A stretch of DNA of 64,000 nt. Source: Candidatus Poribacteria bacterium (GTDB lineage: Bacteria; Poribacteria; WGA-4E; WGA-3G). Of this stretch, positions 6,598-52,927 are shown piece after piece. Under the pieces are notes generated by a model, which was not told where the DNA came from, ran no database searches, and saw only the letters and a list, made by a program, of their open reading frames with translations. Position numbers and translations under genes: made by a program. The first letter of the stretch is position 1, and each line of letters opens with the position of its first letter. The stretch is from positions 4,269,987-4,333,986 of the forward strand of contig OZ241980.1 of the NCBI GenBank assembly GCA_965204285.1. Reading direction: 5' to 3'.

Positions 6598-6599
6598 AG

Positions 6600-7097: not shown

Positions 7098-7114
7098 ACA
7101 ATTGGAGACTTCAC

Positions 7115-8323: not shown

Positions 8324-8453
8324 TAATTACACGCTGTATAGCAAATAGTGGAGATTAACCACGAAAAATTGTATTTTTTTACAATTTTACTATCCTTTTT
8401 ATATCTCAAGGACTCTATAGTGTCAAAAGCATCTATGATAAGGAGATTTTAAA

Positions 8454-9020: not shown

Positions 9021-9085
9021 AGTGAACGCCATTCGCGCGTGATGAAGTAAAACAAAGGATCCCTTCAATCTTATAGGAGGATACT

Positions 9086-9886: not shown

Positions 9887-10065
9887 TGCCTAAACCTCGC
9901 GGAGGGTTTTACGACATTATAGTCCAACCGATAATTATGGACACACTTTAGCATCTGTCTGCTCTCCCCTCGCTTGCGGGGCGGGATAAGAGGGTAGGCT
10001 TTTCATGTGTCCGCTTAATTGTCGAATCTTCTATAATTCTCTATTTCTTGTGGTTTTATTGGTGT

Positions 10066-11973
10066 TTACCAATGCTTAAACGAATACATCCGCTGTCCGA
10101 AAGATAAACCCAAAATCGCCCATAAACTGCCCATGACAAATTCACCCAACATTGCACCAAAAAATAGCGGTAATGCCTTACGGTATGCACCAATTCCGCC
10201 GTGCCGGACAAGTATGGACTTTATTACCCATGCTAAGAACACAGGAAACCAAAGCCTCCCAAAGTTCCAATTGCCAGCAAGCGGATAGGCGAGTGGGTGA
10301 AGTTGCCACCAGATAAAACGCAATCGCATAAAAAGTGTGCTTAAAGTCAGAACAATGCCGAATCCGAAGAAGCCGAGATGCCGCCATTCTGTTTCACTCG
10401 GAAATGTCAACCAGCGTTGAAGGTCATTAAACGCTTCTTGCCCACGCCATGTTCCCAAACTTCCGTGTAGATAGCCAGCGTGTAGGAAGGCGACAAACCC
10501 AATAAGCAGTCCAATAACAGACGATCCCCACATGACCCAAAGCAGTTGACGACTGTTGATTGCACCTTTTTCAGCAAGCTTAAAACCTTCAAGTTGATTC
10601 GGCATCGGTTGCGAACGATAGTTGCGGGTAAACCCGTAGAGGAATGCAAATCCCGTTAAGGTTTGTGCCCCAATCTTCCTTGAACCGAAAAGTGAAGTTA
10701 GGAAAAAACTTGGACCGGCACGATAGAAATCCTGTGTCGGTGTTCCGAGTTCTGCCCGCATCCGTGTGAACGCCAAAACCAGTATGAAATGGATACTGAA
10801 AAATCCAACGATTCCCCACCACGACATGCCTGCCTTTAGGCAAAATCCAAACACAATGGCAATACTAATCAGAAATCCGAAAAACGCACTGCGATACCCT
10901 ATCGGTTCACTTGACGAATCAAGGTCAGTTCTCATACCAATGATATTGCGAAATACTTTCCATAAGTGCTTATGCGTTATCCAAAGTGCAAAGAAACACA
11001 GTCCAAAGTATGCACCAAGCGATTGCATATCAATATGCGGGTAACCAGGTGTTTGGTTCAAACCTGACATAGCCCCGAATATAAGTTGCACTTTCCAAAA
11101 AAGATAGAACACCCAGCAAGATAACGACAAATCAAGCGGCATTAAAAAACCGATGCCGATGGCGTAAGGATTTAGGTGAATAGGGGTTGAACCAATTGCG
11201 TTTAAGGGTTTTTCAGTAAACAACCGCCCAATGTCATGTCGAATAGGAATCGCGGGAACAAAGGGAAAAAGGAAATTCATCCCGTTTAGCAGGTCAAGTC
11301 CTAATCCTACGCCGAATCCGATCCAAAGGAGTCTATTACGGTAGAAAACACTGCCTTTCGTCATTTCAAACGGAAGTAAAATAATAGGGTAACTCAGTTT
11401 TTCGTGTTCAATCCACTGTTTTCGGAGAATCGCGCTCAGCATTATCATAGAAAAAGCGAGCGCAGAAAAGAAAAGTAACCAGAACAGGACAGGCGTGAGC
11501 CATGCCCGAATGTGATCTATTTCAAACAGATTCGATGTGCCTTCGTAATAACCTGTCAAGGCATTGCGATCCATCACAGCAATCCAGTCCGGTATATGCC
11601 GAAAGAAAAGGGATTGCCACTCATTTTCAGGTGTAGCGAACCAACTTGCATGCCCAAGAATACACATCGTTGCCTGCAACAAATCATGTCCGCAGACAAC
11701 GCATGCAAGCGTTACCATGAGATATGTTGTAAGCATTTCTCCTTGTGTCAGCTGCCATTTCGGAAGATATCGTGTTAGGAATAGGTTACAGATTGCAACA
11801 AGGAATAGCGTAAAGACGGCGTTGAAAAAGATCGCCATCGTGGTAGGATATTGTGTTGTCCAGACAGTTTCTGTTTGAACAACAAGGTATATATTGAGGG
11901 GAAGCGACAGCAGACCTATAATTATGGCTCGCCAGGTGATATTTTCAGTTGATAAGCGAGGCGATTTATCCAT
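10066..11973 (-). CDS. large polytopic integral membrane protein (at least 12 predicted TM helices), function unknown
   Basis: 635-aa ORF with many hydrophobic segments. Possibly a DUF678x-type family; not assignable by eye. Confidence 0.55.
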   Translation of the reverse strand: MDKSPRLSTENITWRAIIIGLLSLPLNIYLVVQTETVWTTQYPTTMAIFFNAVFTLFLVAICNLFLTRYLPKWQLTQGEMLTTYLMVTLACVVCGHDLLQATMCILGHASWFATPENEWQSLFFRHIPDWIAVMDRNALTGYYEGTSNLFEIDHIRAWLTPVLFWLLFFSALAFSMIMLSAILRKQWIEHEKLSYPIILLPFEMTKGSVFYRNRLLWIGFGVGLGLDLLNGMNFLFPFVPAIPIRHDIGRLFTEKPLNAIGSTPIHLNPYAIGIGFLMPLDLSLSCWVFYLFWKVQLIFGAMSGLNQTPGYPHIDMQSLGAYFGLCFFALWITHKHLWKVFRNIIGMRTDLDSSSEPIGYRSAFFGFLISIAIVFGFCLKAGMSWWGIVGFFSIHFILVLAFTRMRAELGTPTQDFYRAGPSFFLTSLFGSRKIGAQTLTGFAFLYGFTRNYRSQPMPNQLEGFKLAEKGAINSRQLLWVMWGSSVIGLLIGFVAFLHAGYLHGSLGTWRGQEAFNDLQRWLTFPSETEWRHLGFFGFGIVLTLSTLFMRLRFIWWQLHPLAYPLAGNWNFGRLWFPVFLAWVIKSILVRHGGIGAYRKALPLFFGAMLGEFVMGSLWAILGLSFGQRMYSFKHW

Positions 11974-23596: not shown

Positions 23597-25051
23597 TTAT
23601 AGATCCTGACTGGCAGTAGTATACGTCTTAAGGTGCTTTAAAGCACTCCCATCGTCCATCACCGATTGTGCGCGCTTGAGTGCTTCGTGTGGGTCCGAAC
23701 ATATCCCTAACAGATAATCTACCATAGCCGTGTTGAGAAGAATCCTATCGTAAATCTGTCCTTTTTCGCCCGATAACGCAGCTACACCTGCTTCTGCAAA
23801 AGCATCCGCGCTAACATTTTCTGGGCGTGGATTCAGAGCATATTCAAACCCATAGATTTTAGGATCGATATCTAAAGCGAAGTCTTCACGTTTGCCTTTA
23901 ATGCATCGAAAACCTTGAGAATAATTGACCGCCATCCTGTCGGGTGTAGAGGGTTTTCCGAGTCGCAGTGCATAATGGCTCGTGCCTTCTTCCCCTTTAA
24001 CAGCAACTGCAGCCTGAAACCCTCGTTCCAACGCCATCTGAAGTAAAGGTTTTTCATAACCAATATGATAATATCCAAGCACCATATAGTTTGCTTTTCG
24101 GGCAGAAAAGAATTGTTGTGCCTTCTCAGTTGCAGCCCATGGTGGTCGTTTCTTGATATGCACCCGTAATTCCCGCACTTTATATGCCCCTGGCGAATAT
24201 TCTCGTTGACTGATATATCCAAAACCAACCGATTTATTGGTGATGAGCGAGGCAGTCTGTTCAAGAGATAGGTCAGTCTTTGCGCCGAGTGCTTGCAAAA
24301 TAGACTCTTCAGTTACCCCATTTTTCGGTGGCATCACATCCACACTATGAAGAAGTGAGGGTTCTCCTAATGCTGCACGGACAGCTGCAACAAAAAGGGT
24401 TGGACGAAAATAACGCGTTGCGCCATCGTAAGGTTGACCAAAATGCGTAAGCGTATCCACATCAATCGGGCGAACCTGCTCAGGTGCAAAATAGGCATCA
24501 AGGTATCCTCGCACCTCCTCGTAAGTTTCTCTGTTCATGCGTTGTCCGATAAGTGCGGCGCCTTTCAGGGCAGGTTTAACATCATCAGTGAGGATAGCCT
24601 CACACATCTGTCGAGTTTCAGCATAACTCAAATGTTTTGCCCTTAATATTTTTTCTAATGCTTTCACGACAATGGCTTCTGTCGGATTTCTCGGAATATA
24701 CCCAGGTTCTGGGTTCATGAGAAATTGAATCTCTTTGGGAAGACGAGGCAATAATGTGGGTTGGTATTTCTGGAATGCTGCTTTTTCCGCGTGGGACCAT
24801 TGCGTTGCCTCAGGAAAATATTTTCGAAGCGTCATTGCAACGAAAAACGCTCCCATCTGTGCCTCAGAAACAGTTTCTTTATCTCCTAATTCACCTTCCA
24901 AAGATTTTAAGATGGTTTCAAGGATAGCATCAGGTTGTGGTCCATCGTTAGGTTTCTTTCCTAAAGGTCGTGTTTGGTGTGGACCTGTGCAGACTCGTGC
25001 TTGTGCTTCAAGCATCTCTTCATTGGGTCCGGGATATTGTGGCGTATACAT
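23597..25051 (-). CDS. divergent glycosyltransferase-family-3 (anthranilate phosphoribosyltransferase TrpD-like) protein
   Basis: Weak resemblance to the TrpD N-terminal helical domain (ILETILKSLEGELGDKETVSEAQMGAFFVAMTLRK) and core (ILQALGAKTDLSLEQ...GFGYI). GTGGD motif not found. Tentative. Confidence 0.3.
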   Translation of the reverse strand: MYTPQYPGPNEEMLEAQARVCTGPHQTRPLGKKPNDGPQPDAILETILKSLEGELGDKETVSEAQMGAFFVAMTLRKYFPEATQWSHAEKAAFQKYQPTLLPRLPKEIQFLMNPEPGYIPRNPTEAIVVKALEKILRAKHLSYAETRQMCEAILTDDVKPALKGAALIGQRMNRETYEEVRGYLDAYFAPEQVRPIDVDTLTHFGQPYDGATRYFRPTLFVAAVRAALGEPSLLHSVDVMPPKNGVTEESILQALGAKTDLSLEQTASLITNKSVGFGYISQREYSPGAYKVRELRVHIKKRPPWAATEKAQQFFSARKANYMVLGYYHIGYEKPLLQMALERGFQAAVAVKGEEGTSHYALRLGKPSTPDRMAVNYSQGFRCIKGKREDFALDIDPKIYGFEYALNPRPENVSADAFAEAGVAALSGEKGQIYDRILLNTAMVDYLLGICSDPHEALKRAQSVMDDGSALKHLKTYTTASQDL

Positions 25052-25140: not shown

Positions 25141-25169
25141 TTGACAGCAAGTTAGAAAGAAGATATAAT
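25141..25169 (+). promoter_or_regulatory. consensus sigma70 promoter, TTGACA-17nt-TATAAT
   Basis: Perfect -35 and -10 hexamers with a 17-nt spacer, 70 nt upstream of the hen1 ATG. Confidence 0.55.
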
Positions 25170-25238
25170 AATGAACGCTGATACGAAGAAGCCCTATTTT
25201 ATAATTCCGCTATTAGTTAATCCACTCAATTCATCGCA

Positions 25239-26648
25239 ATGCTTTTGACAATCACAACGACTTATTCTCCTGCGACAGACCTTGGATTTCTGTTGCATAA
25301 GCACCCTGAACGACTTCAATCCTTTGATCTTGCTTTCGGGCAAGCGCATGTCTTTTATCCTGAAGCGAATACGGAAAAATGTACAGCTGCCTTATTACTT
25401 GATGTGGATTCTGTTGGGTTGGTCCGTCGTTATCACGGACAGGTGCGGGATAATTTCGCACTGGCGGAATATGTCAACGACCGCCCTTATGTCGCCTCCT
25501 CATTTATGAGCGTAGCAATTGCCAAAGTGTTTAGCAGCGCGTTATCAGGGAAAAGTAAAGATCGTCCTGAACTTGTGGAAACACCGATACCCTTAAGTGC
25601 AAAGTTATCCACGTTGCCGTGTCGGGGTGGAGAAAAGTTCTTGAGACGGCTCTTTGAACCACTTGGATATAATGTGAATGCTGAAAGACACATCTTAGAT
25701 GCACAGTTCACAGATTGGGGTGAAAGTCGTTATTTCAGTGTCACTTTGGATAAAGTTTGCCGTTTGAGTGAACTCCTCACACATCTTTACGTTTTAATCC
25801 CTGTGCTTGATGATGAAAAACATTACTGGGTCGACCAAGCAGAAATAGATAAACTATTGAAACACGGTGGTGATTGGCTTTCCGAACATCCTGAACAGGA
25901 ATCTATTGTTAATCGTTACCTGAAACGTCAACGTAGACTTACCCGTCAAGCACTTGCTCAATTGCGTGAAACAGATGTTGATGAAATTGAAGAACAGATT
26001 CAAGAAGAAGCACAGATTGAAGAGCGCATTGGTCTAAACGAAATCCGTTTAACCAAGACGACTGAGGTAATCAAAGAGTCCGGAGCAAAACGGGTTCTTG
26101 ATTTAGGGTGTGGTGAAGGAAAACTTCTACGAAAACTGATGGCAGAAAAACAGTTTGAAGAGATTGTAGGCGTAGATGTTTCACATCGATCACTAAAAAT
26201 CGCACAGCAGAGGCTGCATTATGATCGGTTACCTGACAAACAGAAGGAGCGCCTCAAGCTTTTTCAAGGGTCTCTCTGCTATCGAGATAAAAGGTTAGGG
26301 GGATATGACGCAGCGGCTGTAATAGAGGTAATCGAACATTTAGATCCTCCACGTCTTTCTGCCTTTGAAAGAGTTCTATTTGAATTCGCACGCCCACAAA
26401 TGGTTGTATTGACAACGCCTAATGTGGAATATAACGTAAAGTTTGAGAATCTGCCAGAGGGACGATTTCGACACAGAGACCATCGTTTTGAATGGACACG
26501 GGAAGAATTTCAATCTTGGGCATCGGATATTTCCAACTGCTTTGGCTATGCTGTTGTGTTTCACCCAATCGGAGAAACAGATGAAGATGTTGGCTCACCG
26601 ACTCAGATGGCTGTGTTTACAGAAGAAAGATCCGAACAGAAAACCTAA
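25239..26648 (+). CDS. hen1: bacterial Hen1 RNA 3'-terminal 2'-O-methyltransferase (RNA repair)
   Basis: N-terminal bacterial-Hen1 domain (MLLTITTTYSPATDLGFLLHKHPER). C-terminal SAM MTase (VLDLGCGEGKLL). Adjacent to pnkp. Confidence 0.75.
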   Translation: MLLTITTTYSPATDLGFLLHKHPERLQSFDLAFGQAHVFYPEANTEKCTAALLLDVDSVGLVRRYHGQVRDNFALAEYVNDRPYVASSFMSVAIAKVFSSALSGKSKDRPELVETPIPLSAKLSTLPCRGGEKFLRRLFEPLGYNVNAERHILDAQFTDWGESRYFSVTLDKVCRLSELLTHLYVLIPVLDDEKHYWVDQAEIDKLLKHGGDWLSEHPEQESIVNRYLKRQRRLTRQALAQLRETDVDEIEEQIQEEAQIEERIGLNEIRLTKTTEVIKESGAKRVLDLGCGEGKLLRKLMAEKQFEEIVGVDVSHRSLKIAQQRLHYDRLPDKQKERLKLFQGSLCYRDKRLGGYDAAAVIEVIEHLDPPRLSAFERVLFEFARPQMVVLTTPNVEYNVKFENLPEGRFRHRDHRFEWTREEFQSWASDISNCFGYAVVFHPIGETDEDVGSPTQMAVFTEERSEQKT

Positions 26649-26699
26649 ATATCATTTCTGACTGTAGTTTGATTAACCATTTGTAATTGATTTTGAAAT

Positions 26700-29264
26700 A
26701 TGCTTATCAAAATTCCTGACCCTTCACTTGTAATCCTCATTGGTGCTTCAGGTTCGGGTAAATCTACTTTTGCCCAAAAGCATTTTAAGCCGACAGAAAT
26801 CCTTTCGTCTGATTTCTGTCGTGGTCTTGTTTCTGATGACGAAACCGACCAGTCTGCAACGGCTGATGCGTTTGAAGTACTGCACTTCATTGCTGCGAAG
26901 CGACTCGCCGCTGGAAAATTGACAGTGATTGATGCTACGAATGTTCAGGCGGAGGCACGAAAATCGTTGCAGGCACTTGCAAAGGAATATCATTATTTAA
27001 CTACTGCTATAGTGTTTAACCTACCAGCTAAACTCTGTCAAGAGAGAAACGATGCGCGTCCTGACCGGAATTTCAAACCACATGTCATTCGTAATCAGAC
27101 CAGTCAACTGCGTAGATCACTACGCGGACTTAAGCGCGAGGGTTTCCGGAACTTTTTATATGTTATGTCTTCACCGGAGGAGGTTGAAGCAGCTCAAGTT
27201 GAACGGCAACCGTTGTGGACAGATCGTAAGCATGAAGTAGGTCCGTTTGACATAATTGGAGATATTCACGGTTGTTTTGATGAACTTGTGGAATTGCTGA
27301 AAAAACTCGGTTATGAAATTTCGAATCAATCGGATGGTGGGATAGTTGTTAGACATCTACAGGATAGAAAAGTCGTTTTTGTTGGAGATTATGTTGACCG
27401 AGGACCAAAAGTGGTTGAAGTGCTACGATTAGTTATGGAAATGCACAAAACAGATATGGCAATTTGTGTTCCGGGAAATCATGATACAAAACTTGTTCGG
27501 GCACTCAGAGGTAAAAATGTGAATCCGACGCATGGGTTAGCTGAGTCGCTTGCTCAATTAGAAAAAGAACCAGAGGAATTTAAGACAGACATAGCGGATT
27601 TTATTGAAGGCATGGTGAGCCACTATGTTCTGGACAACGGAAAACTTGTGGTGGCACATGCAGGAATGAAGAAGGAATTTCAAGGAAGAGCATCTGGGCG
27701 TGTCCGAGAATTCGCGCTTTATGGTGAAACCACTGGAGAAACTGACGAATTTGGCTTGCCTGTTCGGCTTAATTGGGCTGAGGAATATCGTGGTGATGCG
27801 ACTGTTGTTTATGGACATACGCCTGTTTCTGAACCGCAATGGATAAATCGCACCATTAATATTGATACAGGATGTGTTTTCGGGGGCAATCTGACAGCAT
27901 TGCGATACCCTGAAAGGGAACTCGTGTCTGTACCTGCGCGGCAAACCTATTATGAACCAGCTAAATCGCTGCTTGATGAATCGGACAAAAAGGCTTCATC
28001 AGAAAAGCAAATTGATGAAGGAATCTTGGACATTAGTGATGTTATAGGAAGACGAGTGATTAGCACTCGATTAAATCACAATGTAACGATTCGTGAAGAG
28101 AATACTATCGCAGCGCTGGAGGTGATGAGTCGTTTTGCAATTGATCCGAAATGGCTTATCTATTTACCGCCAACAATGTCTCCAACTGAAACCTCAAGCA
28201 AACCAAATCTGCTTGAACATCCAGCAGAAGGATTTGCTTATTATCGGAATCAAGGTGTGTCTCAAGTCGTTTGGGAAGAAAAACACATGGGATCACGTGC
28301 TGTTGTTATTGTATGCAAAAGCACCGAAACGGCAAAAAAGCGTTTTAGCATATCAGATGATAGAATTGGCGTCTGTTACACGCGCACTGGTAGACCTTTT
28401 TTTGACGAGGTATTGATGGAATCTGAACTACTGAAACAAGTCAAACAGGCAGCAGACAGCGCTGATTTTTGGGAAGCATTAGATACGGGTTGGATTTGTT
28501 TGGATTGTGAGCTGATGCCGTGGTCAGTGAAAGCACAAGAGTTGTTACGACAACAGTATGCCCCTGTTGGAACATCCGCAGGTATCGCGGTTCAAGATGC
28601 GATTGGTACTTTAGAAGCCGCAGAGAAACGGGGAATTGAGGTCAAGGATATATTGGACGGTTATCTACAACGCACTGTTGCTGTTAGTGAATATGTCAAT
28701 GCCTATCAACGATATTGCTGGTCTGTGGAATCTATCACCGATCTGAAACTTGCTCCGTTCCATCTATTGGCAACAGAGGGGAATGTACATGTTGATAAAG
28801 ACCATCTGTGGCACATGGAGATACTTTCAAAACTTTGTAACGGTTCTGATGACAATCTGTTATTTGCTACTTCATACGGCACGGTTGATTTAACTAACGA
28901 GAATAGTGAAACTGAAGCGATTCGTAAATGGGAAGACCTTACTGCACAAGGCGGTGAAGGTATTGTTATCAAACCATTGAATTTTGTTGTTAAAGGCAAA
29001 CGCGGACTTGTTCAACCGGCTGTTAAATGTCGGGGTAGAGAATATCTTCGTATAATTTATGGACCTGAATACACATTACCCCACTACTTAGAACGTCTTC
29101 GATCCAGAGGATTGTCGCACAAACGTTCGCTTGCAATCAGAGAATTTGCATTAGGTGTTGAAGCACTTGAAAGGTTTGTACATCATGAACCTTTGTCTAA
29201 GGTTCATGAATGTGTTTTCGGCGTATTAGCACTTGAAAGTGAAACAGTTGATCCGAGGTTATGA
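26700..29264 (+). CDS. pnkp: polynucleotide kinase-phosphatase/ligase Pnkp (RNA repair): P-loop 5'-kinase, calcineurin-like 2',3'-phosphoesterase, C-terminal adenylyltransferase/ligase
   Basis: GASGSGKST P-loop. GDIHGCFDEL / GDYVDRGP / GNHD metallophosphoesterase motifs. C-terminal nucleotidyltransferase region with candidate Lys nucleophile (EEKHMGSRAVV). Confidence 0.8.
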   Translation: MLIKIPDPSLVILIGASGSGKSTFAQKHFKPTEILSSDFCRGLVSDDETDQSATADAFEVLHFIAAKRLAAGKLTVIDATNVQAEARKSLQALAKEYHYLTTAIVFNLPAKLCQERNDARPDRNFKPHVIRNQTSQLRRSLRGLKREGFRNFLYVMSSPEEVEAAQVERQPLWTDRKHEVGPFDIIGDIHGCFDELVELLKKLGYEISNQSDGGIVVRHLQDRKVVFVGDYVDRGPKVVEVLRLVMEMHKTDMAICVPGNHDTKLVRALRGKNVNPTHGLAESLAQLEKEPEEFKTDIADFIEGMVSHYVLDNGKLVVAHAGMKKEFQGRASGRVREFALYGETTGETDEFGLPVRLNWAEEYRGDATVVYGHTPVSEPQWINRTINIDTGCVFGGNLTALRYPERELVSVPARQTYYEPAKSLLDESDKKASSEKQIDEGILDISDVIGRRVISTRLNHNVTIREENTIAALEVMSRFAIDPKWLIYLPPTMSPTETSSKPNLLEHPAEGFAYYRNQGVSQVVWEEKHMGSRAVVIVCKSTETAKKRFSISDDRIGVCYTRTGRPFFDEVLMESELLKQVKQAADSADFWEALDTGWICLDCELMPWSVKAQELLRQQYAPVGTSAGIAVQDAIGTLEAAEKRGIEVKDILDGYLQRTVAVSEYVNAYQRYCWSVESITDLKLAPFHLLATEGNVHVDKDHLWHMEILSKLCNGSDDNLLFATSYGTVDLTNENSETEAIRKWEDLTAQGGEGIVIKPLNFVVKGKRGLVQPAVKCRGREYLRIIYGPEYTLPHYLERLRSRGLSHKRSLAIREFALGVEALERFVHHEPLSKVHECVFGVLALESETVDPRL

Positions 29265-32672: not shown

Positions 32673-35600
32673 TTGATATTTTCAACATATATTGGCTCAA
32701 TACATAAAAAGTCCAAAAGGTTGAATTTGAGACTTACCCAGGTAGGTGGTCTTATTCTTTTTGTGTATATGTTCTTTTTAGGACATCACCAGATGGCAAC
32801 AGCGCAAACTGTTCACATTCCTGACCCAGGTCTCCGCGCTGTTCTTGAATTGGCATTGGATAAAGAGGTAGGTGACGACATCACTCAGGCGGATATGGAG
32901 AGTTTGAAAACACTTCAAGCAGTCAAATCTGGTATTCACGATCTCACAGGTCTTGAGTTCGCAACGAATCTGGAAATCTTAGAGTTTGGACAAAACCAAA
33001 TATCAGATATATCCCCACTTAAAGATTTGATAAAGCTGACAAAACTACGTCTTGGGGACAACCGTGAGATATCAGATGCGTCTCCGCTCAAAAATTTGAC
33101 AAATCTGACGTTCCTGGATATTGATAGTAATCAGGTATCGGATGTGTCTCCGCTCAAAAATTTGATAAATTTGACTTGGTTAGACCTTGACGACAACGGT
33201 ATCTCAGATTTGTCTCCACTTAGCACTTTGACAAAGCTGAGGTACTTGGATCTTGACGGCAACCTTATCTCAGATTTATCTCCACTTAGCACTTTGACAA
33301 ATCTGACATTTCTGGATCTTGATGAAAACGAGATATCAGATTTTTCCATACTCAGTACTTTGATAAACTTGACAGTGCTTGATCTTGAAGGTAACAAGAT
33401 ATCGGATGTGTCCCCCCTCAGCACCTTGATAAATCTGACAGAATTGGATCTACATAACAACAAGATATCGGATGTGTCTCCCCTCAGCAATTTGATAAAC
33501 TTGACAGTGCTTGACCTTCGGGGCAACCAGATATCAGATTTTTCCCCAATCAATGGATTGATAGATAATTTAGTGGAATATTATAACAGCGACCAAACCA
33601 TTCCAACCCATATACCTGAAAATGTGAATCGCGATGGCAACCCAGAACTTGTCCACATTCCAGACCGAGGTCTCCGTACTGCTCTTGAATTCGCATTGAG
33701 CAAAACACCAGTTGAAAACATAACTCAGTCAGATATGGCGAGTTTAAAAGTGCTTCAAGCAAGCAAATGCCGCTATTTAGGATTAGCGGAAGTGGGAGCA
33801 CGAGCGCCAAACCGGTGGGAATGCGGGTTTACTGATGTTACGTCTGGATATAGTATTCAAAATCTAACCGGCCTTGAGTTTGCTACTAATCTGAGAGAGT
33901 TACATCTTGGTCGAAATGAGATATCTGATGTGTCTCCACTCAAAAATTTGACAGAATTAACATACCTTGATCTTGGTAACAACCAGCAAATATCAGATGT
34001 ATCCCCACTCAGAAACTTGACAAATTTGACATTCTTAAACCTTAGATTTAATCGTATATCAGATATATCTCCACTCAAAAATTTGACAAAGCTGATTGAA
34101 CTCGGTCTACGCGGCAATGAATTATCGGATGTGACTCCACTCCGTCCCTTGATAAGCTTGAAGTATCTAAGCGTTAGAGATAATCGTTTATCAGATGTGA
34201 CTCCTTTACGAAACTTGACACAATTGGTAATCCTGAATCTGCGTGAAAATAATATATCAGATGTGACTCCATTCAAAGGTTTGGTGAACTTGACACACCT
34301 TTATCTTAGAGAAAACCAAGTATTGGATGTGTCACCTCTCAGAGATATGATAAATATGAGAGAACTGGACCTTGAAGATAACCAAGTATCAGATGTGACT
34401 CCACTCAGAGATATGACGGAACTGGTATACCTGGATATGGACAGCAACGCAGTACCGGACGTGTCTGCATTAAAAAATATGACAAAACTAAGAATTCTGG
34501 ATTTTTCCGATAACCAGATATCAGATATTTCACCACTCACAGATATGTTATATCTAAGTCGCCTGGATCTTGATGACAATCCAATATTGGATGTGTCACC
34601 TCTCGAAAACTTGACAAGACTGATATGGTTAGATCTGGATGATAACGAGATATTGGATGTGTCACCTCTCAAAAACTTGACAAGACTGACATGGTTAGAT
34701 CTGGATGACAACCAAATATCGGATCTATCTCCGCTTAAAAATTTGATGGAACTGACATACCTGGACCTTGATGGCAACGAGATATCAGATTTATCGCCAC
34801 TCAAAGATATGACAAAACTGGAAGTCTTGGATCTTGATGGTAATAACATATCTGATGTGTCCCCACTCAGTACATTAATAAATCTAATAGAGTTGGATCT
34901 TCACGACAACGAAATATCTGATATATCCGCACTCCAAAATATGACAAATCTGATGGATCTGGATATTGACGACAACCAGATAACTGATGTATCACCTCTG
35001 AAAAATATGATTAAATTAACAATACTTGATGCTGACGGCAACCTGATATTGAATGTGTCCCCACTCAAAGATTTGACAAATCTTACTGAACTGGATCTTC
35101 ACGACAACGAAATATCTGATATATCCGCACTCCAAAATATGACAAAACTCAAAGTGCTTGATCTTCGTGGCAATCAGATATCAGATTTTTCGCCAATCGC
35201 CGGATTGATAGATAATTTAGTAGAATATTATAACAGCAACCAAACATTTCCTGCCTACAAGCGTGAAGATGTGAATCGAGATGGTGTCGTGAATATTACT
35301 GATCTTGTCTTAGCGGCAACTAACTTTGACGATCCTGACTTGACGGTACTTGCTCGGAGAAATCTCTATCCAGATGTTAACAACGACGGTGTTGTGGATA
35401 TCAGAGACTTAGTTCTAATCGCTGCGGAGATAGGTTCGGCTGCTGCTCCAGCACTTAGCAAAAGCTCAATTGAAACATCGAATCTCACTGCCAAAAATCT
35501 CACGCAGTGGATACGGCTTGCCAAGAAACTTGATATGTCCAATCTGCAGATGCAGAAAGGGGTTGCTGTTTTGGAGCAGCTTTTAGCAGTGCTGTCCCAT

Positions 35601-35909
35601 GCAGAGAGGTTACCGAAAGAGACGGCACTATTAATGAACTATCCAAATCCGTTCAACCCAGAGACTTGGATACCTTATCAGCTGGCAAAACCAACAGAGG
35701 TAGTTATTTCTATCCATTCTGTAGATGGGAAGCTTGTTCGGAGGCTGGTGTTAGGGCATTTACCTGTGGGTATATATCGTAGCAAATCTCGCGCTGCACA
35801 TTGGGATGGTCGGAATGAGTCGGGTGAACTTGTGGCAAGTGGTGTCTATTTTTATACACTCACTACTGATAATTTTACGGCTACTCGCAAAATGCTCATT
35901 CAGAAGTAA
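32673..35909 (+). CDS. internalin-like LRR surface protein, in-frame fusion of two paralogous LRR units, with C-terminal dockerin-like pair plus T9SS-type CTD
   Basis: TTG start conserved with paralogs (AAGGGGA RBS). About 33 22-residue LRRs (L..LTNLT.LDL..N.ISDVSPL). A second N-cap (VHIPDRGLRTALEFAL...C...C) at about aa 320. C-terminus DVNRDGVVNITD / DVNNDGVVDIRD then NYPNPFNPETWIPYQL...GVYFYTL. Confidence 0.75.
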   Translation: MIFSTYIGSIHKKSKRLNLRLTQVGGLILFVYMFFLGHHQMATAQTVHIPDPGLRAVLELALDKEVGDDITQADMESLKTLQAVKSGIHDLTGLEFATNLEILEFGQNQISDISPLKDLIKLTKLRLGDNREISDASPLKNLTNLTFLDIDSNQVSDVSPLKNLINLTWLDLDDNGISDLSPLSTLTKLRYLDLDGNLISDLSPLSTLTNLTFLDLDENEISDFSILSTLINLTVLDLEGNKISDVSPLSTLINLTELDLHNNKISDVSPLSNLINLTVLDLRGNQISDFSPINGLIDNLVEYYNSDQTIPTHIPENVNRDGNPELVHIPDRGLRTALEFALSKTPVENITQSDMASLKVLQASKCRYLGLAEVGARAPNRWECGFTDVTSGYSIQNLTGLEFATNLRELHLGRNEISDVSPLKNLTELTYLDLGNNQQISDVSPLRNLTNLTFLNLRFNRISDISPLKNLTKLIELGLRGNELSDVTPLRPLISLKYLSVRDNRLSDVTPLRNLTQLVILNLRENNISDVTPFKGLVNLTHLYLRENQVLDVSPLRDMINMRELDLEDNQVSDVTPLRDMTELVYLDMDSNAVPDVSALKNMTKLRILDFSDNQISDISPLTDMLYLSRLDLDDNPILDVSPLENLTRLIWLDLDDNEILDVSPLKNLTRLTWLDLDDNQISDLSPLKNLMELTYLDLDGNEISDLSPLKDMTKLEVLDLDGNNISDVSPLSTLINLIELDLHDNEISDISALQNMTNLMDLDIDDNQITDVSPLKNMIKLTILDADGNLILNVSPLKDLTNLTELDLHDNEISDISALQNMTKLKVLDLRGNQISDFSPIAGLIDNLVEYYNSNQTFPAYKREDVNRDGVVNITDLVLAATNFDDPDLTVLARRNLYPDVNNDGVVDIRDLVLIAAEIGSAAAPALSKSSIETSNLTAKNLTQWIRLAKKLDMSNLQMQKGVAVLEQLLAVLSHAERLPKETALLMNYPNPFNPETWIPYQLAKPTEVVISIHSVDGKLVRRLVLGHLPVGIYRSKSRAAHWDGRNESGELVASGVYFYTLTTDNFTATRKMLIQK

Positions 35910-36029
35910 GAGATGATTACATCAGGTCTTTTAGTTTGATGTATATGCTGCTTGTTTCTTTCTGAATCCTTGCTTGTAGAAACTTTCAGAATTTCCTGAT
36001 TAACCGAAAACAAAGGAGCAAGAAATATC

Positions 36030-38225
36030 TTGATACTTTTTACATCATATAAAGGATCGCTATCCGAATATTTCTCAAACCGGAATTTAGAATTTACCCG
36101 TGTTGTTATTCTTGTATTTATAGCGTGTGCCTTTTTTGGGGCACCACACCGTATAGCAACCGCACAGACTGTCCACATTCCGGATTCTGATCTTCGCACC
36201 GCTGTTGAGTTAACATTGAACAAAGAGATAGGTGAAGACATCACTCCAGCAGATATGGCAAGTTTGCAAATACTTCAAGCAAGTAACTGTCACTTTTTGA
36301 GGCGATCAGGAGTGCCACGATGGATACCAATACGCCAGAGATGTCCACACAATTTATTAGAATCCCACGTTCAAGACCTAACAGCACTTGAATTCGCAAT
36401 TAATCTGGAAGAGTTACATCTTGCTCATAACCTGATATCTGATGTATCCCCACTCAAAAATATGAAAAAACTGATTGTGTTAGATCTGCACAACAACTTT
36501 ATGATATCTGATGTATCACCACTTAGTGCTTTGACAAATCTTACGCACTTATCTCTTTGGGGCAACCAAGTTTCCGATCCCTCTCCCCTCAGTGTACTAA
36601 AAAACCTCACATATTTATCTCTTGAAAACAATGGAGTATCTGATGTATTCCCACTCAAAGGTTTGACCAACTTGGAGGGACTGGATGTTGAAACCAACCG
36701 AATCTCCGATTTATCCCCGCTCAGAGGTTTGACAAAACTTACGTTCCTTGATTTTGACCAGAATAGAGTATCTGATGTATCACCACTCAAAAACATGACA
36801 GAACTAACACAACTGGATGCATCCGACAACCAGATTTCAGATATATCTCCGCTCAGTGCTATGACAGAAATAACACAGCTGGATATTGACGATAATCAGA
36901 TAATAGATATATCCGCACTCAAAAATATGACAAAAATGTTATGGCTGGATATTGACGGTAACCAGATAATAGGTTTGTCCGCACTCAAAAATATGACAAA
37001 TCTGACAAGGGCGAACATTGATGACAATAACATATCAGATGTGTCCCCACTGGAAAATTTAACAAAATTAGAAAAACTTGATCTTGACCATAACAACATA
37101 TCAGATGTATCACCACTGAAAAATATGGTAAAACTGACATGGTTAGATATTGACGATAACCAGATAATAGATATATCCGCACTCAAAAATATGATAAGGT
37201 TGCAATTGTTGGATTTAGGTGACAATGAAATATTAGATATATCCGCACTCAAAAATATGACGAAATTGACAGAATTAGATCTTAACGACAACGAAATATT
37301 AGATATATCCGCACTCAAAAATATGACAAAACTCAAAGTGCTTGATCTTAACGGCAATCGGATATCAAACATATCCGCACTGAAAAATATGACAAAATTG
37401 ACAGAATTAGATCTTCACGACAACCAGATATCAGATATATCCGCACTCAAAGATTTGACAAATCTCAAAGTGTTGGATCTTCGTGGCAACCATATATCTG
37501 ATTTTTCACCAATCGCAGGATTGATAGATAATTTAGTGGAATATTACAACAGCGACCAAACACTCCCGACCCACAAATTAGAAGATGTGAACCGAGATGG
37601 TATCGTAAATATTACTGATCTTGTTTTAGCCGCATTAAATCTTGACAATCCTGATTTAGCGTCACTCGCTCGGAGAAATCTCTATCCAGATGTTAACAAT
37701 GACGGTGTTGTGGATATCAGGGACTTGGTACTAATCGCTGCAGAGATAGGTTCACCCGCTGCTCCAGCGCTCAGCAAAAACGCGGTTGAAACATCCAACC
37801 TCACTGCTAAAAATCTCACACGGTGGATACGGCTTGCCAAACAGCTTGATACACAAGAGCCGCAAATACAAAGAGGGATTTCTGTTTTAGAACAGTTCTT
37901 AGCAGTTCTGATTGACGTAGAAGTGCCACCAAAAGAGACTGCCCTACTAACCAACTATCCAAATCCGTTCAACCCTGAAACTTGGATACCTTATCAGTTG
38001 GCAAAACCAGCGAAGGTAAATATCTCTATTCATTCTGCGGATGGTAAACTTATTCGTCTGATACCAATGGGGCACTTGCCTGCAGGCACATATCACAGCA
38101 AATCTCGCGCAGCTTATTGGGATGGTCGGAATGACTCAGGTGAGACTGTAGCAAGTGGCGTCTATTTTTATACACTCACTGCAGATGATTTCACCGCTAC
38201 TCAAAAAATGCTAATCCGAAAGTGA
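36030..38225 (+). CDS. internalin-like LRR surface protein with C-terminal dockerin-like pair plus T9SS-type CTD (paralog 2)
   Basis: TTG start and AAAGGAG RBS. Signal peptide and Cys-loop N-cap (NCHFL...RQRCPHN). About 17 LRRs. Same C-terminal module. Confidence 0.75.
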   Translation: MILFTSYKGSLSEYFSNRNLEFTRVVILVFIACAFFGAPHRIATAQTVHIPDSDLRTAVELTLNKEIGEDITPADMASLQILQASNCHFLRRSGVPRWIPIRQRCPHNLLESHVQDLTALEFAINLEELHLAHNLISDVSPLKNMKKLIVLDLHNNFMISDVSPLSALTNLTHLSLWGNQVSDPSPLSVLKNLTYLSLENNGVSDVFPLKGLTNLEGLDVETNRISDLSPLRGLTKLTFLDFDQNRVSDVSPLKNMTELTQLDASDNQISDISPLSAMTEITQLDIDDNQIIDISALKNMTKMLWLDIDGNQIIGLSALKNMTNLTRANIDDNNISDVSPLENLTKLEKLDLDHNNISDVSPLKNMVKLTWLDIDDNQIIDISALKNMIRLQLLDLGDNEILDISALKNMTKLTELDLNDNEILDISALKNMTKLKVLDLNGNRISNISALKNMTKLTELDLHDNQISDISALKDLTNLKVLDLRGNHISDFSPIAGLIDNLVEYYNSDQTLPTHKLEDVNRDGIVNITDLVLAALNLDNPDLASLARRNLYPDVNNDGVVDIRDLVLIAAEIGSPAAPALSKNAVETSNLTAKNLTRWIRLAKQLDTQEPQIQRGISVLEQFLAVLIDVEVPPKETALLTNYPNPFNPETWIPYQLAKPAKVNISIHSADGKLIRLIPMGHLPAGTYHSKSRAAYWDGRNDSGETVASGVYFYTLTADDFTATQKMLIRK

Positions 38226-38342
38226 AGCGAGATGACACAGCAGCATTTTAGTTAGATGTATGCTGCTTGCTTCTGCTTTGAAGCCTTGTGGGTGATACTT
38301 TTCAGCGTTATCCGTTGACCTAAGACATAGGAGTATTATCTC

Positions 38343-40700
38343 TTGAAACTTTTTACATCATATAAGGTATTACTGTCCAAACCTTTCTCAGACCGGAGTG
38401 TAGAATTTACCCGGATTGTTATTCTTGTTTTTATCGCGGGCATGCTTTTTGGGGCATCACACCCGATAGCAATGGCACAGCCTGTCCACATTCCGGACCC
38501 CGGCCTCCGTGCTGCTCTTGAATTAGCACTGGATAAAGAGATAGGTGAGGACATTACCGAGGCTGAGATGGCGAGTTTGAAAATACTTCAAGCAAGTAAC
38601 TGCCGTTTTTTATGGTTGTCGGAAATAGGACACTGGGCTGTAAATAGGCGATGGATATGTCAGTCTGCTGACGATACGTTGGGAACCGGTGATAATATGT
38701 TTGAATATGATATTCGAGATTTGACGGGCCTTGAGTTTGCTACTAATCTGACAGATCTGCATCTTGGCCGGAATCGGATATCTGATATTTCTCCACTCAA
38801 AGACTTGACAAACTTAACATATCTTGATCTCGGACTCAACCGGAGGATATCGGATGTGTCTCCACTTGAAAACTTAACAAACTTGACACACTTGAATCTA
38901 ACAGGTAATCGGATATCGGATGTGTCTCCACTTAAAAACTTAACAAAACTGGTAGACTTGGATCTCCAATACAATCGGATATCGGATGTGTCTCCACTTG
39001 AAAACTTAACAAACTTGATTTTTTTAGATATCCGCAGCAACCAGATATCAGATATATCTCCACTCAAAAATTTGACAAACTTGACACACCTGAGACTTAA
39101 AGAGAACCAAATATTTGATGTTACCCCGCTCAAAAACTTAACAGACTTATCACACCTTAGTCTTCAATCCAATCAGATATCGGATGTGTCCCAACTCACT
39201 TCCTTGGCAAATTTAGTTTATCTGGATCTTGACAGCAACCAGATATCAGATGTATCTGTGCTCAAGAACTTTAAAGAACTGAGACATCTGGATATTTCTG
39301 ACAACCAAGTATCGGATGTATCTCCCCTCCAAGATCTGATATTCCTGGGACGTCTGGATATTGACGATAACCCTCTATCGGATGTGTTCCCGCTCAGAAA
39401 ATTGACTAACCTTGTATTTTTAGATATTGATGATTGTCAGATATTAGATATTTCTCCTCTCAGAGACTTGATCAGGTTGACAGTTTTAGATCTTGATGAT
39501 AATAAGATATCCGATGTATTTCCTCTCAAGGACTTGACAAGATTGGTAGTTTTGGATCTTGATGGCAATGAATTATCGGATATATCTCCACTTGAAAACT
39601 TGACAAGACTGACAGAACTGGATCTTGATGGTAATCAGATATCGGATGTGTCCCCGCTCAAAGTTTTGAGAAATTTAAAACTACTTGATCTTCACAACAA
39701 CCTGATATCTGATTTGGCGCCACTCAGTGACTTAACAAGACTGGCTTTTCTGGATCTTGACGACAATCAGATATTAGATGTGTCTCCACTCAGAAATTTG
39801 ACAAACTTGACGGAACTGGATCTTGATGGTAATCAGGTATCGGATGTAACACCTCTTAAAGATTTAACAAATCTGACAGTGTTAGACCTCCGCGACAATC
39901 AGATATTAGATGTGTCTCCACTCAACGGTTTGGTAAACCTGAAAATCTTAGATATTAGTGACAACCATATATCTGATTTTTCTCCAATTGCCGGATTGAT
40001 AGATAATTTGGAGGAATATTATAACAGCAACCAAACATTTCCTGCCTACAAGCGGGAAGATGTGAACCGCGATGGTGTCGTGAATATTACTGATCTTGTC
40101 TTAGCAGCAACCAACTTTGACGATCCTGACTTGGGCGCACTTGCCCGGATAAACCTCTATCCAGATGTTAACAACGACGGTGTTGTGGATATTAGAGACC
40201 TGGTCCTTATTGCTGCAGAGATAGGTTCCGCTGCTGCACCTACACTTAGCAAAAATTCCATTATAGCAATAGAGCTCACTGCGAAGGACCTCACGCCGTG
40301 GATTGCTCTCGCAAAACAACTTGACACACAAGATATACAGATACAAAAAGGTATTGCTGTATTGGAGCAGCTTTTAGCTGCCCTTACTCTTTCCGAGATT
40401 TTACCGCGAGAGACAGCCCTGTTAGCGAACTATCCAAATCCGTTCAATCCTGAAACGTGGATACCGTATCAGCTGTCAAAACCGGCAGCGGTTACGATAT
40501 CTATTCATTCTGCGGATGGTAAACTTATTCGCTCATTATATATTGGGCGTTTGTCTGCTGGTATCTATCGTAGCAAATCCCGTGCGGCGTATTGGGATGG
40601 TCGAAATGAGTCGGGTGAACTTGTAGCAAGCGGTGTTTATTTTTATACACTCACTGCGGGTGATTATACTGCAACGAAGAAAATGCTTATCAAAAAGTAA
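38343..40700 (+). CDS. internalin-like LRR surface protein with C-terminal dockerin-like pair plus T9SS-type CTD (paralog 3)
   Basis: TTG start and AGGAG RBS. N-cap NCRFLWLSEIGHWAVNRRWIC. About 22 LRRs. Same C-terminal module. Confidence 0.75.
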   Translation: MKLFTSYKVLLSKPFSDRSVEFTRIVILVFIAGMLFGASHPIAMAQPVHIPDPGLRAALELALDKEIGEDITEAEMASLKILQASNCRFLWLSEIGHWAVNRRWICQSADDTLGTGDNMFEYDIRDLTGLEFATNLTDLHLGRNRISDISPLKDLTNLTYLDLGLNRRISDVSPLENLTNLTHLNLTGNRISDVSPLKNLTKLVDLDLQYNRISDVSPLENLTNLIFLDIRSNQISDISPLKNLTNLTHLRLKENQIFDVTPLKNLTDLSHLSLQSNQISDVSQLTSLANLVYLDLDSNQISDVSVLKNFKELRHLDISDNQVSDVSPLQDLIFLGRLDIDDNPLSDVFPLRKLTNLVFLDIDDCQILDISPLRDLIRLTVLDLDDNKISDVFPLKDLTRLVVLDLDGNELSDISPLENLTRLTELDLDGNQISDVSPLKVLRNLKLLDLHNNLISDLAPLSDLTRLAFLDLDDNQILDVSPLRNLTNLTELDLDGNQVSDVTPLKDLTNLTVLDLRDNQILDVSPLNGLVNLKILDISDNHISDFSPIAGLIDNLEEYYNSNQTFPAYKREDVNRDGVVNITDLVLAATNFDDPDLGALARINLYPDVNNDGVVDIRDLVLIAAEIGSAAAPTLSKNSIIAIELTAKDLTPWIALAKQLDTQDIQIQKGIAVLEQLLAALTLSEILPRETALLANYPNPFNPETWIPYQLSKPAAVTISIHSADGKLIRSLYIGRLSAGIYRSKSRAAYWDGRNESGELVASGVYFYTLTAGDYTATKKMLIKK

Positions 40701-40777
40701 TACCAAATCAGGTAATGCCAAACGGTCTTAATTCTGATAAAAATACCTTTTTAAGTGGCTACACTACAAGGAGCAAA

Positions 40778-44416: not shown

Positions 44417-44445
44417 TTTTCTCCATCTCTGGATTCCAAATTTGC

Positions 44446-45762: not shown

Positions 45763-45829
45763 AGCATATTTTTAGTAGAATTGGACTCAACGATTACATT
45801 GAGGACTCGGTTTAATTCTGGACGAATTT

Positions 45830-46810: not shown

Positions 46811-46853
46811 TACGAAAGTTTCGTGTTAGGTATTTCATTCAAGGAGAGTCAGT

Positions 46854-47759: not shown

Positions 47760-47803
47760 TGCTCAAACCAATAAATACTCCTTATCCGATTAGTATGTGA
47801 AAA

Positions 47804-51824: not shown

Positions 51825-51850
51825 TTCATATATTGACCTGTACGTAGAAC

Positions 51851-52852: not shown

Positions 52853-52927
52853 GTGGCATTGAAATAAGAGGAGGTTGTCAATGTGAATTATCCACACAAG
52901 TGTATAGTTCACTTGAAAAAGTATAAT

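What the first reader, a model, noticed from the sequence alone, without database searches (positions are those of the whole stretch)
25141..29264. Hen1-Pnkp RNA end-healing and sealing gene pair, with hen1 placed upstream of pnkp
This is a complete bacterial RNA-repair pair. Pnkp has a 5'-kinase, a 2',3'-phosphatase and a ligase domain. Hen1 has its N-terminal Pnkp-binding domain plus a 2'-O-methyltransferase. A perfect-consensus sigma70 promoter (TTGACA-17-TATAAT) drives them.

The system is known: it repairs ribotoxin-cleaved tRNA and methylates the junction. It is sporadically distributed, which suggests this organism is exposed to RNA-targeting toxins.

As far as I recall, characterised operons have pnkp upstream of hen1. 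Here the order is reversed, hen1 then pnkp with a 51-nt gap. That would be a small organisational novelty if confirmed.
Basis: partly seen in the sequence, partly recalled or inferred. Interest (0 to 1): 0.5.

Follow-up and report, generated by a model that had tools for sequence, protein, structure and literature searches.

The report
Ordinary Hen1-Pnkp RNA repair operon
This is a complete, textbook Hen1-Pnkp RNA-repair gene pair in a Candidatus Poribacteria genome, and the hen1-before-pnkp order that was flagged as unusual is in fact the normal order for this system.

Summary
hen1 lies at 25239-26648 (469 aa) and pnkp at 26700-29264 (854 aa), both on the + strand and 51 nt apart. An exact TTGACA-17-TATAAT lies at 25141-25169. 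Both proteins pass NCBI's equivalog models by about twofold (TIGR04074 725 bits against a cutoff of 340; TIGR04075 1414 against 750). They give full-length matches (E 1e-67 to 1e-167; about 60% identity measured for the ligase domain) to the crystallised C. thermocellum and Anabaena domains. Every catalytic residue I checked is present. The novelty claim is wrong. In 80 loci from one-genome-per-species contigs across many phyla, hen1 lay upstream of pnkp and co-oriented in 70 of the 71 loci that hold both genes. Four RefSeq-annotated plasmids show the same order. For the characterised Anabaena operon, a paper states that Hen1 is "synthesized first". The promoter hexamers are conserved in two of three related Poribacteria loci. 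The locus is syntenic in two of those three, so it looks like a resident chromosomal gene pair and not a mobile one. No ribotoxin, defence gene, tRNA or Rfam element occurs anywhere in the 64 kb. Verdict: a canonical, already-described system in its minimal two-gene form, of low interest.

The parts
25141..25169 (+). Sigma70-type promoter: TTGACA (25141-25146), 17-nt spacer, TATAAT (25164-25169), ending 70 nt before the hen1 ATG
   Evidence: Read directly. It scored 12/12 and was the only exact match in the window. The TTGAC and TATAAT hexamers align in the Poribacteria loci L001 and L003 while the spacer and flanks diverge. That it drives transcription is inferred, not shown.
25170..25238 (+). 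Predicted leader of about 60 nt. It is A/U-rich, has no Shine-Dalgarno-like motif and has no significant structure.
   Evidence: The fold z-score is +0.85, so it is no more stable than shuffled sequence. No SD-like motif was found, although 25 of 46 window genes have one. There was no Rfam hit.
25239..26648 (+). [quoted passage not shown] Residues 1-242 form the Pnkp-ligase-activating N-domain and residues about 255-462 form the Mn-dependent methyltransferase.
   Evidence: TIGR04074 equivalog 725 bits against a cutoff of 340, aligned 2-461 of 462. PF12623 Hen1_L E=3e-115. PDB 4dqz, the C. thermocellum Hen1 N-domain, E=1.4e-89. Anabaena Hen1 MTase 3jwh, E=5.9e-84. Motifs LDLGCGEG 287-294, EVIEH 363-367 and DHRFEW 414-419 are present.
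26649..26699 (+). 51-nt hen1-pnkp spacer. It is A/T-rich and has no SD motif, no promoter-like site and no terminator.
   Evidence: Comparable spacers occur in relatives: about 62 nt in L001, about 45 nt in L003 and 62 nt in the Nostoc plasmid.
26700..27212 (+). pnkp, 5'-OH polynucleotide kinase domain (aa 1-171)
   Evidence: PDB 4gp6, the C. thermocellum Pnk domain, E=1.2e-69. The P-loop GASGSGKST is at 15-23 with K21 and S22, and D38, R41, R116, R120 and R123 are present. These are the residues named essential or contacting in PMC3902929.
27213..27962 (+). pnkp, binuclear metallophosphoesterase 2',3'-phosphatase/cyclic phosphodiesterase domain (aa 172-421)
   Evidence: PDB 4j6o E=1.9e-111. 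D188, H190, D230, R234, N260, H261, H320, H373 and D389 are present. They correspond to Cth D187, H189, D233, R237, N263, H264, H323, H376 and D392, which PMC3675462 lists as essential.
28023..29264 (+). pnkp, C-terminal RNA ligase (adenylyltransferase) domain with the Hen1-binding insert (aa 442-854, plus the stop codon)
   Evidence: PF16542 PNKP_ligase E=5e-178. PDB 4drf/4e6n E=1.1e-167 across 442-854. KHMGSR at 528-533 is invariant in alignment A1, which includes the C. thermocellum sequence. From the chain numbering, K528 maps to Cth Lys531.

Best explanation
This is a canonical, intact, minimal two-gene Hen1-Pnkp RNA repair operon on the chromosome of a Candidatus Poribacteria bacterium. 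Mechanism, by homology to the C. thermocellum and Anabaena systems: the two proteins assemble as a (Pnkp)2(Hen1)2 tetramer. [quoted passage not shown] The Hen1 C-terminal domain then methylates the 2'-OH of the 3'-terminal nucleotide, and the Pnkp kinase phosphorylates the 5'-OH. The Pnkp ligase, which needs the Hen1 N-terminal domain to be active, seals the break. The 2'-O-methyl left at the junction blocks re-cleavage at the same site. Shown here: gene identity, domain architecture, conservation of catalytic residues, the canonical gene order, and conservation of the promoter hexamers and of local synteny within Poribacteria. Inferred: transcription from the TTGACA/TATAAT site as one hen1-pnkp mRNA, complex formation, enzymatic activities and the in vivo substrate.
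For: The equivalog HMMs were passed about twofold over cutoff and all Pfam domains are present. The crystallised C. thermocellum and Anabaena domains align over their full length (E 1e-67 to 1e-167; 60% identity for the C. thermocellum ligase domain in alignment A1). All catalytic residues named in PMC3902929 and PMC3675462 are present. The pathway and the tetramer are described in PMC3675462. Gene order is hen1 then pnkp in 70 of 71 informative loci, in 4 annotated plasmids and in the Anabaena operon. The promoter hexamers are conserved in L001 and L003. The flanking genes (TrpD-like, NosD-like, GT4, LTD) are retained in L002, and all but the TrpD-like gene in L003. GC content is about 43%, similar to the flanks. 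Relatives at 85-90% identity are already named 'polynucleotide kinase-phosphatase [Candidatus Poribacteria bacterium]'.
Against: Nothing contradicts the identification. The caveats are as follows. No expression or activity data exist for this organism. Neither gene has an SD-like motif, so how translation starts, and whether the two genes are translationally coupled across a 51-nt gap, is unknown. No intrinsic terminator follows pnkp, so the 3' end of the transcript is undefined and it might run into the NosD-like gene 57 nt downstream. The closest relative, L001, does not share the flanking genes. No cognate ribotoxin was found, so the physiological trigger is unknown.
Confidence: 0.95

Rival explanations
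1. One reading: a Hen1-Pnkp pair whose hen1-upstream arrangement is reversed relative to characterised operons, and therefore an organisational novelty.
For: None was found. The only pnkp-then-hen1 locus in the survey is L065, a Chloroflexales MAG.
Against: Hen1 is upstream in 70 of 71 loci that hold both genes, and a 71st locus (L015) has the hen1 3' end at the contig edge just upstream of pnkp. Four RefSeq plasmids from four phyla show the same order. The PMC4411300 supplement says of the Anabaena operon: 'Hen1 being synthesized first'.
Confidence: 0.01
2. The cassette is a recently acquired mobile or defence-island module, kept because this lineage is currently attacked by a specific ribotoxin encoded nearby or by competitors.
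For: The family does occur on plasmids beside IS elements and toxin-antitoxin genes. In other genomes it recruits variable accessory genes. L001, the closest relative, has the pair in a different neighbourhood.
Against: In this window the flanks are metabolic and envelope genes. No transposase, integrase, toxin-antitoxin gene, PADLOC defence hit (other than a generic methyltransferase match) or tRNA occurs anywhere in the 64 kb. GC content matches the flanks. The same neighbourhood is kept in Poribacteria species that are only about 76% identical, which argues for long residence at this site.
Confidence: 0.08
3. The pair works mainly in routine RNA metabolism, for example 3'-end 2'-O-methylation or end-processing of particular cellular RNAs, and not in repairing toxin-cut tRNA.
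For: There is a strong consensus promoter with conserved hexamers. The locus is a stable chromosomal one with no linked toxin or regulator. As far as I know, no in vivo substrate has been established for any bacterial Pnkp-Hen1. That last point is my own knowledge, not a tool result.
Against: All four activities needed for heal-methylate-seal are conserved together. This is hard to explain if methylation or end-trimming were the only function. In vitro reconstitution on ribotoxin-cut tRNA is the published activity (PMC4411300 and PMC12776372 introductions).
Confidence: 0.12

Closest known systems
Clostridium thermocellum Pnkp-Hen1 RNA repair cassette (PDB 4drf/4e6n, 3ty5, 4j6o, 4gp6, 4dqz, 3jwg)
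   Same: The two-gene architecture and the domain order in each protein are the same. Every catalytic residue checked is conserved, and the alignments cover each crystallised domain end to end.
   Different: The host phylum differs, Poribacteria instead of Firmicutes. There are a few small indels, including a shorter beta3-beta4 hairpin region in the phosphatase and a 13-residue shorter insert in the ligase helical module. I could not retrieve the C. thermocellum genomic locus itself, so its spacer was not compared.
Anabaena variabilis Pnkp-Hen1 operon (Hen1 MTase PDB 3jwh/3jwj)
   Same: Hen1 is encoded first and Pnkp second, in one operon (PMC4411300 Suppl. Fig. 3a). The MTase domain aligns over 208 residues at E=5.9e-84. 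A related Nostoc plasmid has a 62-nt hen1-pnkp spacer, close to the 51 nt here.
   Different: Nothing of functional significance was detected.
Capnocytophaga gingivalis Pnkp1-Rnl-Hen1 three-protein system (PDB 4xrp/4xru)
   Same: The chemistry is the same: kinase, phosphatase, ligase and Hen1 methyltransferase.
   Different: In that system the ligase is a separate protein (Rnl) and hen1 is unlinked, about 55 kb away. The window proteins match it only weakly, at E=3e-9 for Rnl and E=3.5e-10 for Hen1. The window therefore holds the fused, linked Pnkp-Hen1 type and not this variant.
Expanded Hen1-X-Pnkp cassettes carrying RlaP, Thg1-like, HEAT or other inserts
   Same: They share the same hen1 and pnkp core and the same order.
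   Different: About 21 of 70 surveyed loci carry one to three extra co-oriented genes between hen1 and pnkp. The window has none, so it is the minimal form.

Membership tests
Bacterial Pnkp (TIGR04075, polynucleotide kinase-phosphatase) | Full-length match to the equivalog model above its curated cutoff | tested here: met
   1413.7 bits against a cutoff of 750, aligned 2-854 to model positions 2-851 of 851.
Bacterial Pnkp (TIGR04075, polynucleotide kinase-phosphatase) | N-terminal P-loop 5'-OH kinase with Lys21, Ser22, Asp38 and Arg41 | tested here: met
   GASGSGKST at 15-23 and SSDFCRG at 36-42. The residues are defined in PMC3902929. 4gp6 E=1.2e-69.
Bacterial Pnkp (TIGR04075, polynucleotide kinase-phosphatase) | Central binuclear metallophosphoesterase with the nine essential residues (Cth D187, H189, D233, R237, N263, H264, H323, H376, D392) | tested here: met
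   GDIHG, GDYVDRG, GNHD, AHAG, GHTP and NIDTG are all present at the aligned positions. The list of essential residues comes from PMC3675462.
Bacterial Pnkp (TIGR04075, polynucleotide kinase-phosphatase) | C-terminal Pnkp-type ligase/adenylyltransferase domain with the motif I lysine | tested here: met
   PF16542 592 bits. 4drf E=1.1e-167. K528 in KHMGSR is invariant in alignment A1. Equating it with the adenylylated Lys531 rests on chain numbering and on my own knowledge of Martins & Shuman 2005 and Smith et al. 2012, which are not held in the library.
Bacterial Pnkp (TIGR04075, polynucleotide kinase-phosphatase) | Kinase, phosphatase and adenylyltransferase activities of the protein | not testable with these tools
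   This needs recombinant protein assays.
Bacterial Hen1 (TIGR04074) | Full-length match to the equivalog model above its curated cutoff | tested here: met
   725.2 bits against a cutoff of 340, aligned 2-461 to model positions 1-461 of 462.
Bacterial Hen1 (TIGR04074) | N-terminal Pnkp-ligase-associating domain (Hen1_L) | tested here: met
   PF12623 E=3e-115 over residues 1-242. 4dqz E=1.4e-89 over 1-230.
Bacterial Hen1 (TIGR04074) | C-terminal Hen1-type methyltransferase with the SAM-binding GxGxG motif and the metal-binding E-x-x-E-H ... H motifs | tested here: met
   LDLGCGEG at 287-294, EVIEH at 363-367 and DHRFEW at 414-419 are identical in the aligned Anabaena Hen1. The protein also matches human HENMT1 and Arabidopsis HEN1 MTase domains. 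Assigning these residues as metal ligands rests on my own knowledge of the HEN1 structures.
Pnkp-Hen1 operon | Adjacent, co-oriented genes with hen1 upstream of pnkp | tested here: met
   In the window, hen1 ends at 26648 and pnkp starts at 26700, both on the + strand. The same order holds in 70 of 71 surveyed loci, in 4 annotated plasmids and in the Anabaena operon.
Pnkp-Hen1 operon | Formation of a (Pnkp)2(Hen1)2 complex and Hen1-dependent ligation | not testable with these tools
   This is inferred from homology. The complex is described in PMC3675462.

The most novel reading that the evidence does not exclude
In one Poribacteria subclade the cassette may be functionally tied to the divergently transcribed TrpD-fold paralogue at 23597-25051 (-), which has weak sub-threshold similarity to YbiB/TrpD2 DNA-binding proteins. 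The two share the 187-nt intergenic control region, which would make a three-gene nucleic-acid repair module. A milder version is that the pair is a constitutively expressed, vertically inherited housekeeping function in Poribacteria and not a sporadic defence accessory.
Probability: 0.05. Interest if true: 0.3.

Novelty: already known. Interest (0 to 1): 0.08.

Why it matters
It matters little beyond correct annotation. It adds one more Poribacteria genome to a system already known from many phyla. The useful outcome is the correction: hen1 then pnkp is the rule, and the reverse order is the rarity at 1 in 71. The survey also gives a small, reusable picture of how often accessory genes are wedged between hen1 and pnkp, roughly 30% of loci.

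Tried and rejected
(1) I tried to read the primary gene-order sources (Jain & Shuman 2010, PMC2811661; Chan et al. 2009, PMC2764946) and the active-site papers (PMC3289333, PMC3039143). None is held.

(2) I searched the literature for the C. thermocellum and Anabaena locus tags as I remembered them and found nothing.

(3) I spent a second large protein search on the C. thermocellum ligase domain, hoping to get its id and fetch its genomic context. The C. thermocellum protein itself was not among the 120 rows listed, and the best hit was 83% identical. The C. thermocellum locus was therefore never inspected directly. The Anabaena statement and the survey stand in for it.

(4) I looked for ribotoxins, anticodon nucleases, toxin-antitoxin or defence genes with Pfam and PADLOC over essentially every ORF of the 64 kb. 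None was found. The only PADLOC hit was a generic methyltransferase-domain match of Hen1 to mad2.

(5) I looked for tRNA genes and Rfam elements and found none.

(6) I folded the leader, the intergenic spacer and the region downstream of pnkp. None is more structured than shuffled sequence, so there is no riboswitch-like or attenuator-like element.

(7) I looked for a terminator after pnkp and found none. The only strong hairpin, at 29183-29209, lies inside the coding sequence.

(8) I considered a functional link to the TrpD-like neighbour. The adjacency recurs only in L002 among the 80 loci, so I treat it as coincidental.
Full report
**Observation.** The ORF listing gives a 469-aa ORF at 25239..26648 and an 854-aa ORF at 26700..29264. 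Both are on the + strand, both start with ATG, and they are separated by 51 nt. The sequence 25141-25169 reads TTGACA, 17 nt, TATAAT. It is the only 12/12 promoter-like site in the 10-kb scan and the only exact match in the 64-kb window. The window holds 7 sites with at most one mismatch, against 0.71 expected from dinucleotide shuffles. Consensus sigma70-type promoters therefore appear to be used generally by this organism.

**Identity.** The upstream protein matches NCBIfam TIGR04074 (bacterial Hen1, equivalog) at 725 bits against a cutoff of 340. The downstream protein matches TIGR04075 (bacterial Pnkp, equivalog) at 1414 bits against a cutoff of 750. Both matches are end to end. Pfam resolves Hen1 into Hen1_L (1-242) plus a SAM methyltransferase. 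It resolves Pnkp into AAA_33 kinase (10-141), Metallophos (182-376) and PNKP_ligase (471-848).

Against the PDB, each module aligns along its whole length with the crystallised C. thermocellum or Anabaena domains:
- Kinase, 4gp6, E=1.2e-69.
- Phosphatase, 4j6o, E=1.9e-111.
- Ligase, 4drf/4e6n, E=1.1e-167.
- Hen1 N-domain, 4dqz, E=1.4e-89.
- Hen1 MTase, 3jwh, E=5.9e-84.

**Catalytic residues.** Using the residues named in the structural papers, I confirmed the following:
- Kinase: the P-loop GASGSGKST (K21, S22), the general base D38, R41, and the lid arginines R116, R120 and R123.
- Phosphatase: all nine essential residues, D188, H190, D230, R234, N260, H261, H320, H373 and D389, equivalent to Cth D187, H189, D233, R237, N263, H264, H323, H376 and D392.
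- Ligase: motif I KHMGSR with K528, which maps to Cth Lys531 by chain numbering, plus EGIVIK and VKCRG.
- Hen1: LDLGCGEG, EVIEH and DHRFEW.

The pair is complete and looks active.

**Gene order.** This was the only claim of novelty, and it fails. I built a 12-sequence Pnkp alignment that included the C. thermocellum ligase domain. I scanned the one-genome-per-species collection with it. They come from Poribacteria, Acidobacteriota, Chloroflexota, Verrucomicrobiota, Planctomycetota, Cyanobacteriota, Gemmatimonadota, Actinomycetota, Armatimonadota, Myxococcota, Bacteroidota, Firmicutes and others.

A tblastn of the window's Hen1 against these loci, each oriented with pnkp on the + strand, gave the following breakdown:
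- 70 loci have hen1 upstream and co-oriented.
- 1 locus (L065, a Chloroflexales MAG) has hen1 downstream.
- 9 loci gave no hit at E below 1e-10.
- Of those 9, 4 have less than 1 kb of upstream flank, and 1 (L015) shows the hen1 3' end at the contig edge just upstream of pnkp.
- The remaining 4 (L046, L061, L076, L079) have no hen1 within the available flank.

[quoted passage not shown] The Supplementary Fig. [quoted passage not shown] PMC3675462, Fig. [quoted passage not shown] The order in the window is the canonical one. The 51-nt spacer is also unremarkable. Tblastn-estimated spacers in directly adjacent pairs range from about -7 to about 300 nt, and the nearest relatives have about 45-62 nt.

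**Source and context.** The Pnkp is 100% identical to a protein on a 5.08-Mb NCBI/ENA contig. Its nearest named relatives, at 85-90% identity, are 'polynucleotide kinase-phosphatase [Candidatus Poribacteria bacterium]'. The flanking genes are as follows:
- A PhyH-family dioxygenase.
- A xylose-isomerase-like TIM barrel.
- A divergent TrpD-fold paralogue.
- Downstream of the cassette, a NosD-like lipoprotein, a GT4 glycosyltransferase and an LTD-domain protein.

Two other Poribacteria species keep these neighbours, L002 and L003, which are only about 76% identical in Pnkp. L002 keeps all four: TrpD-like, NosD-like, GT4 and LTD. L003 keeps NosD-like, GT4 and LTD. The closest locus, L001, has different flanks.

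GC content matches the surroundings. Scanning essentially all proteins of the window against Pfam, and the nearest ten against PADLOC, found no ribotoxin, anticodon nuclease, toxin-antitoxin pair, transposase or defence system. There are no tRNA genes and no Rfam families. I read this as a long-resident chromosomal locus and not a mobile island. The idea that it reports on a nearby toxin has no support.

**Expression signals.** The TTGAC and TATAAT hexamers align between the window, L001 and L003, while the spacer and flanking bases differ. That footprint favours a real promoter. L002 has a TTGACA-17-TATACT about 276 nt upstream of hen1 instead. The predicted leader of about 60 nt and the 51-nt spacer are A/U-rich and no more structured than shuffled sequence. 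Both lack SD-like motifs, whereas 25 of 46 genes in the window have one. No terminator follows pnkp, so the 3' end of the transcript is unknown. Transcription as a bicistron is inferred from the arrangement and by analogy with Anabaena.

**Mechanism, by homology (PMC3675462; PMC4411300).** A (Pnkp)2(Hen1)2 tetramer is held together by the kinase homodimer and by 1:1 contacts between the ligase domain and the Hen1 N-domain. The phosphatase converts the 2',3'-cyclic phosphate to 2',3'-OH. The Hen1 MTase methylates the terminal 2'-OH. The kinase phosphorylates the 5'-OH. The Hen1-activated ligase then seals the break, and the 2'-OMe at the junction prevents re-cleavage. The sequence prerequisites for each step are shown here. 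The activities and the in vivo substrate are inferred.

**By-products of the survey.** About 21 of the 70 hen1-upstream loci carry one to three co-oriented genes inserted between hen1 and pnkp. These include pairs of RlaP (PF10127) nucleotidyltransferases in 6 loci, HEAT-repeat proteins in 5 loci and Thg1-like tRNA-His guanylyltransferase. They also include AAA_15 ATPase plus DUF3226, an RNA ligase plus an HD/AAA_33 kinase, DUF4291 and an R2K ATP-grasp protein. The link between RlaP and RNA-ligase operons is already in the literature (PMC12776372). The window carries the minimal form with no insert.

**Verdict.** The claimed organisational novelty is refuted. The system, its order and its presence in Poribacteria are already known or already annotated, so interest is low.

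Noticed in passing
Loci L004, L023, L035, L044, L049, L059 (RlaP pairs); L017, L022, L033, L063, L069 (HEAT); L009, L068 (Thg1-like); L053, L068 (AAA_15 + DUF3226); L050 (RNA ligase + HD/AAA_33 kinase); L052 (DUF4291); L059 (R2K ATP-grasp). In each case the genes lie between hen1 and pnkp.: Roughly 30% of the surveyed Hen1-Pnkp cassettes have one to three extra co-oriented genes inserted between hen1 and pnkp. These are mostly RNA-modifying or RNA-repair-type enzymes. The window lacks any insert. The RlaP association is published. The HEAT, DUF4291, AAA_15/DUF3226 and R2K inserts may be less well described.
   Followed up: partly
L065: pnkp at 6001-8544, hen1 at 8569-9957 (Chloroflexales MAG, CALGUG010000061.1): This is the only locus of the 71 holding both genes with the reverse order, pnkp then hen1. 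The genes are co-oriented and about 24 nt apart.
   Followed up: partly
L079 (Chamaesiphon MAG), L046, L061, L076: These loci have a full-length pnkp with no recognisable hen1 within the available flank, which is 6 kb on both sides in L079. L046 has only a 17-residue hen1-like remnant upstream (E=0.32). They may be orphan or unlinked Pnkp genes.
   Followed up: no
window 23597-25051 (-): A 484-aa TrpD-fold (anthranilate phosphoribosyltransferase-like) paralogue with an N-terminal extension of about 130 aa. It scores below every curated cutoff (PRK07394 134 bits against 287; TrpD 59 against 199; YbiB 40 against 185). It is transcribed divergently from hen1 across a 187-nt spacer, and the adjacency recurs only in L002.
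   Followed up: partly
window 29183-29209 (+), inside the pnkp 3' end: A perfect 11-bp hairpin (TCATGAACCTT...AAGGTTCATGA) followed by a T-rich run scores as terminator-like. It lies 55 nt before the pnkp stop codon, within the conserved HEPLSKVHE coding segment. It is probably a coincidence of codon choice.
   Followed up: no
window 32673-43408 (+): Three tandem leucine-rich-repeat proteins (1078, 731 and 785 aa) and an FG-GAP/ASPIC/dockerin protein (897 aa). All have a C-terminal FlgD_ig-like domain, which may be a secretion or sorting tag. These are eukaryote-like repeat proteins of the kind typical of sponge-associated Poribacteria.
   Followed up: no
window 43421-61229 (+): A large co-oriented polysaccharide cluster. 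It holds an NAD epimerase, a MurJ-like flippase, four sulfotransferases, two sulfatases with dockerin domains, a Wzi-like protein, a GT4 and a Bac_transf priming transferase. It also holds three ORFs with no Pfam match (47804-49153, 49150-50772, 52883-53452). It suggests synthesis or remodelling of a sulfated glycan.
   Followed up: no
window 10066-11973 (-): A 635-aa protein made of DUF6785 plus DUF6784 (E=5.6e-157), next to POTRA, BatA/VWA and transglutaminase-like genes. It is a conserved envelope gene set of unknown function.
   Followed up: no
window, all 46 mapped genes: Only 25 of 46 genes have an SD-like motif within 25 nt of the start codon, and hen1, pnkp and the NosD-like gene have none. 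Near-consensus TTGACA-17-TATAAT sites are about 10-fold enriched over shuffles (7 against 0.71).
   Followed up: partly
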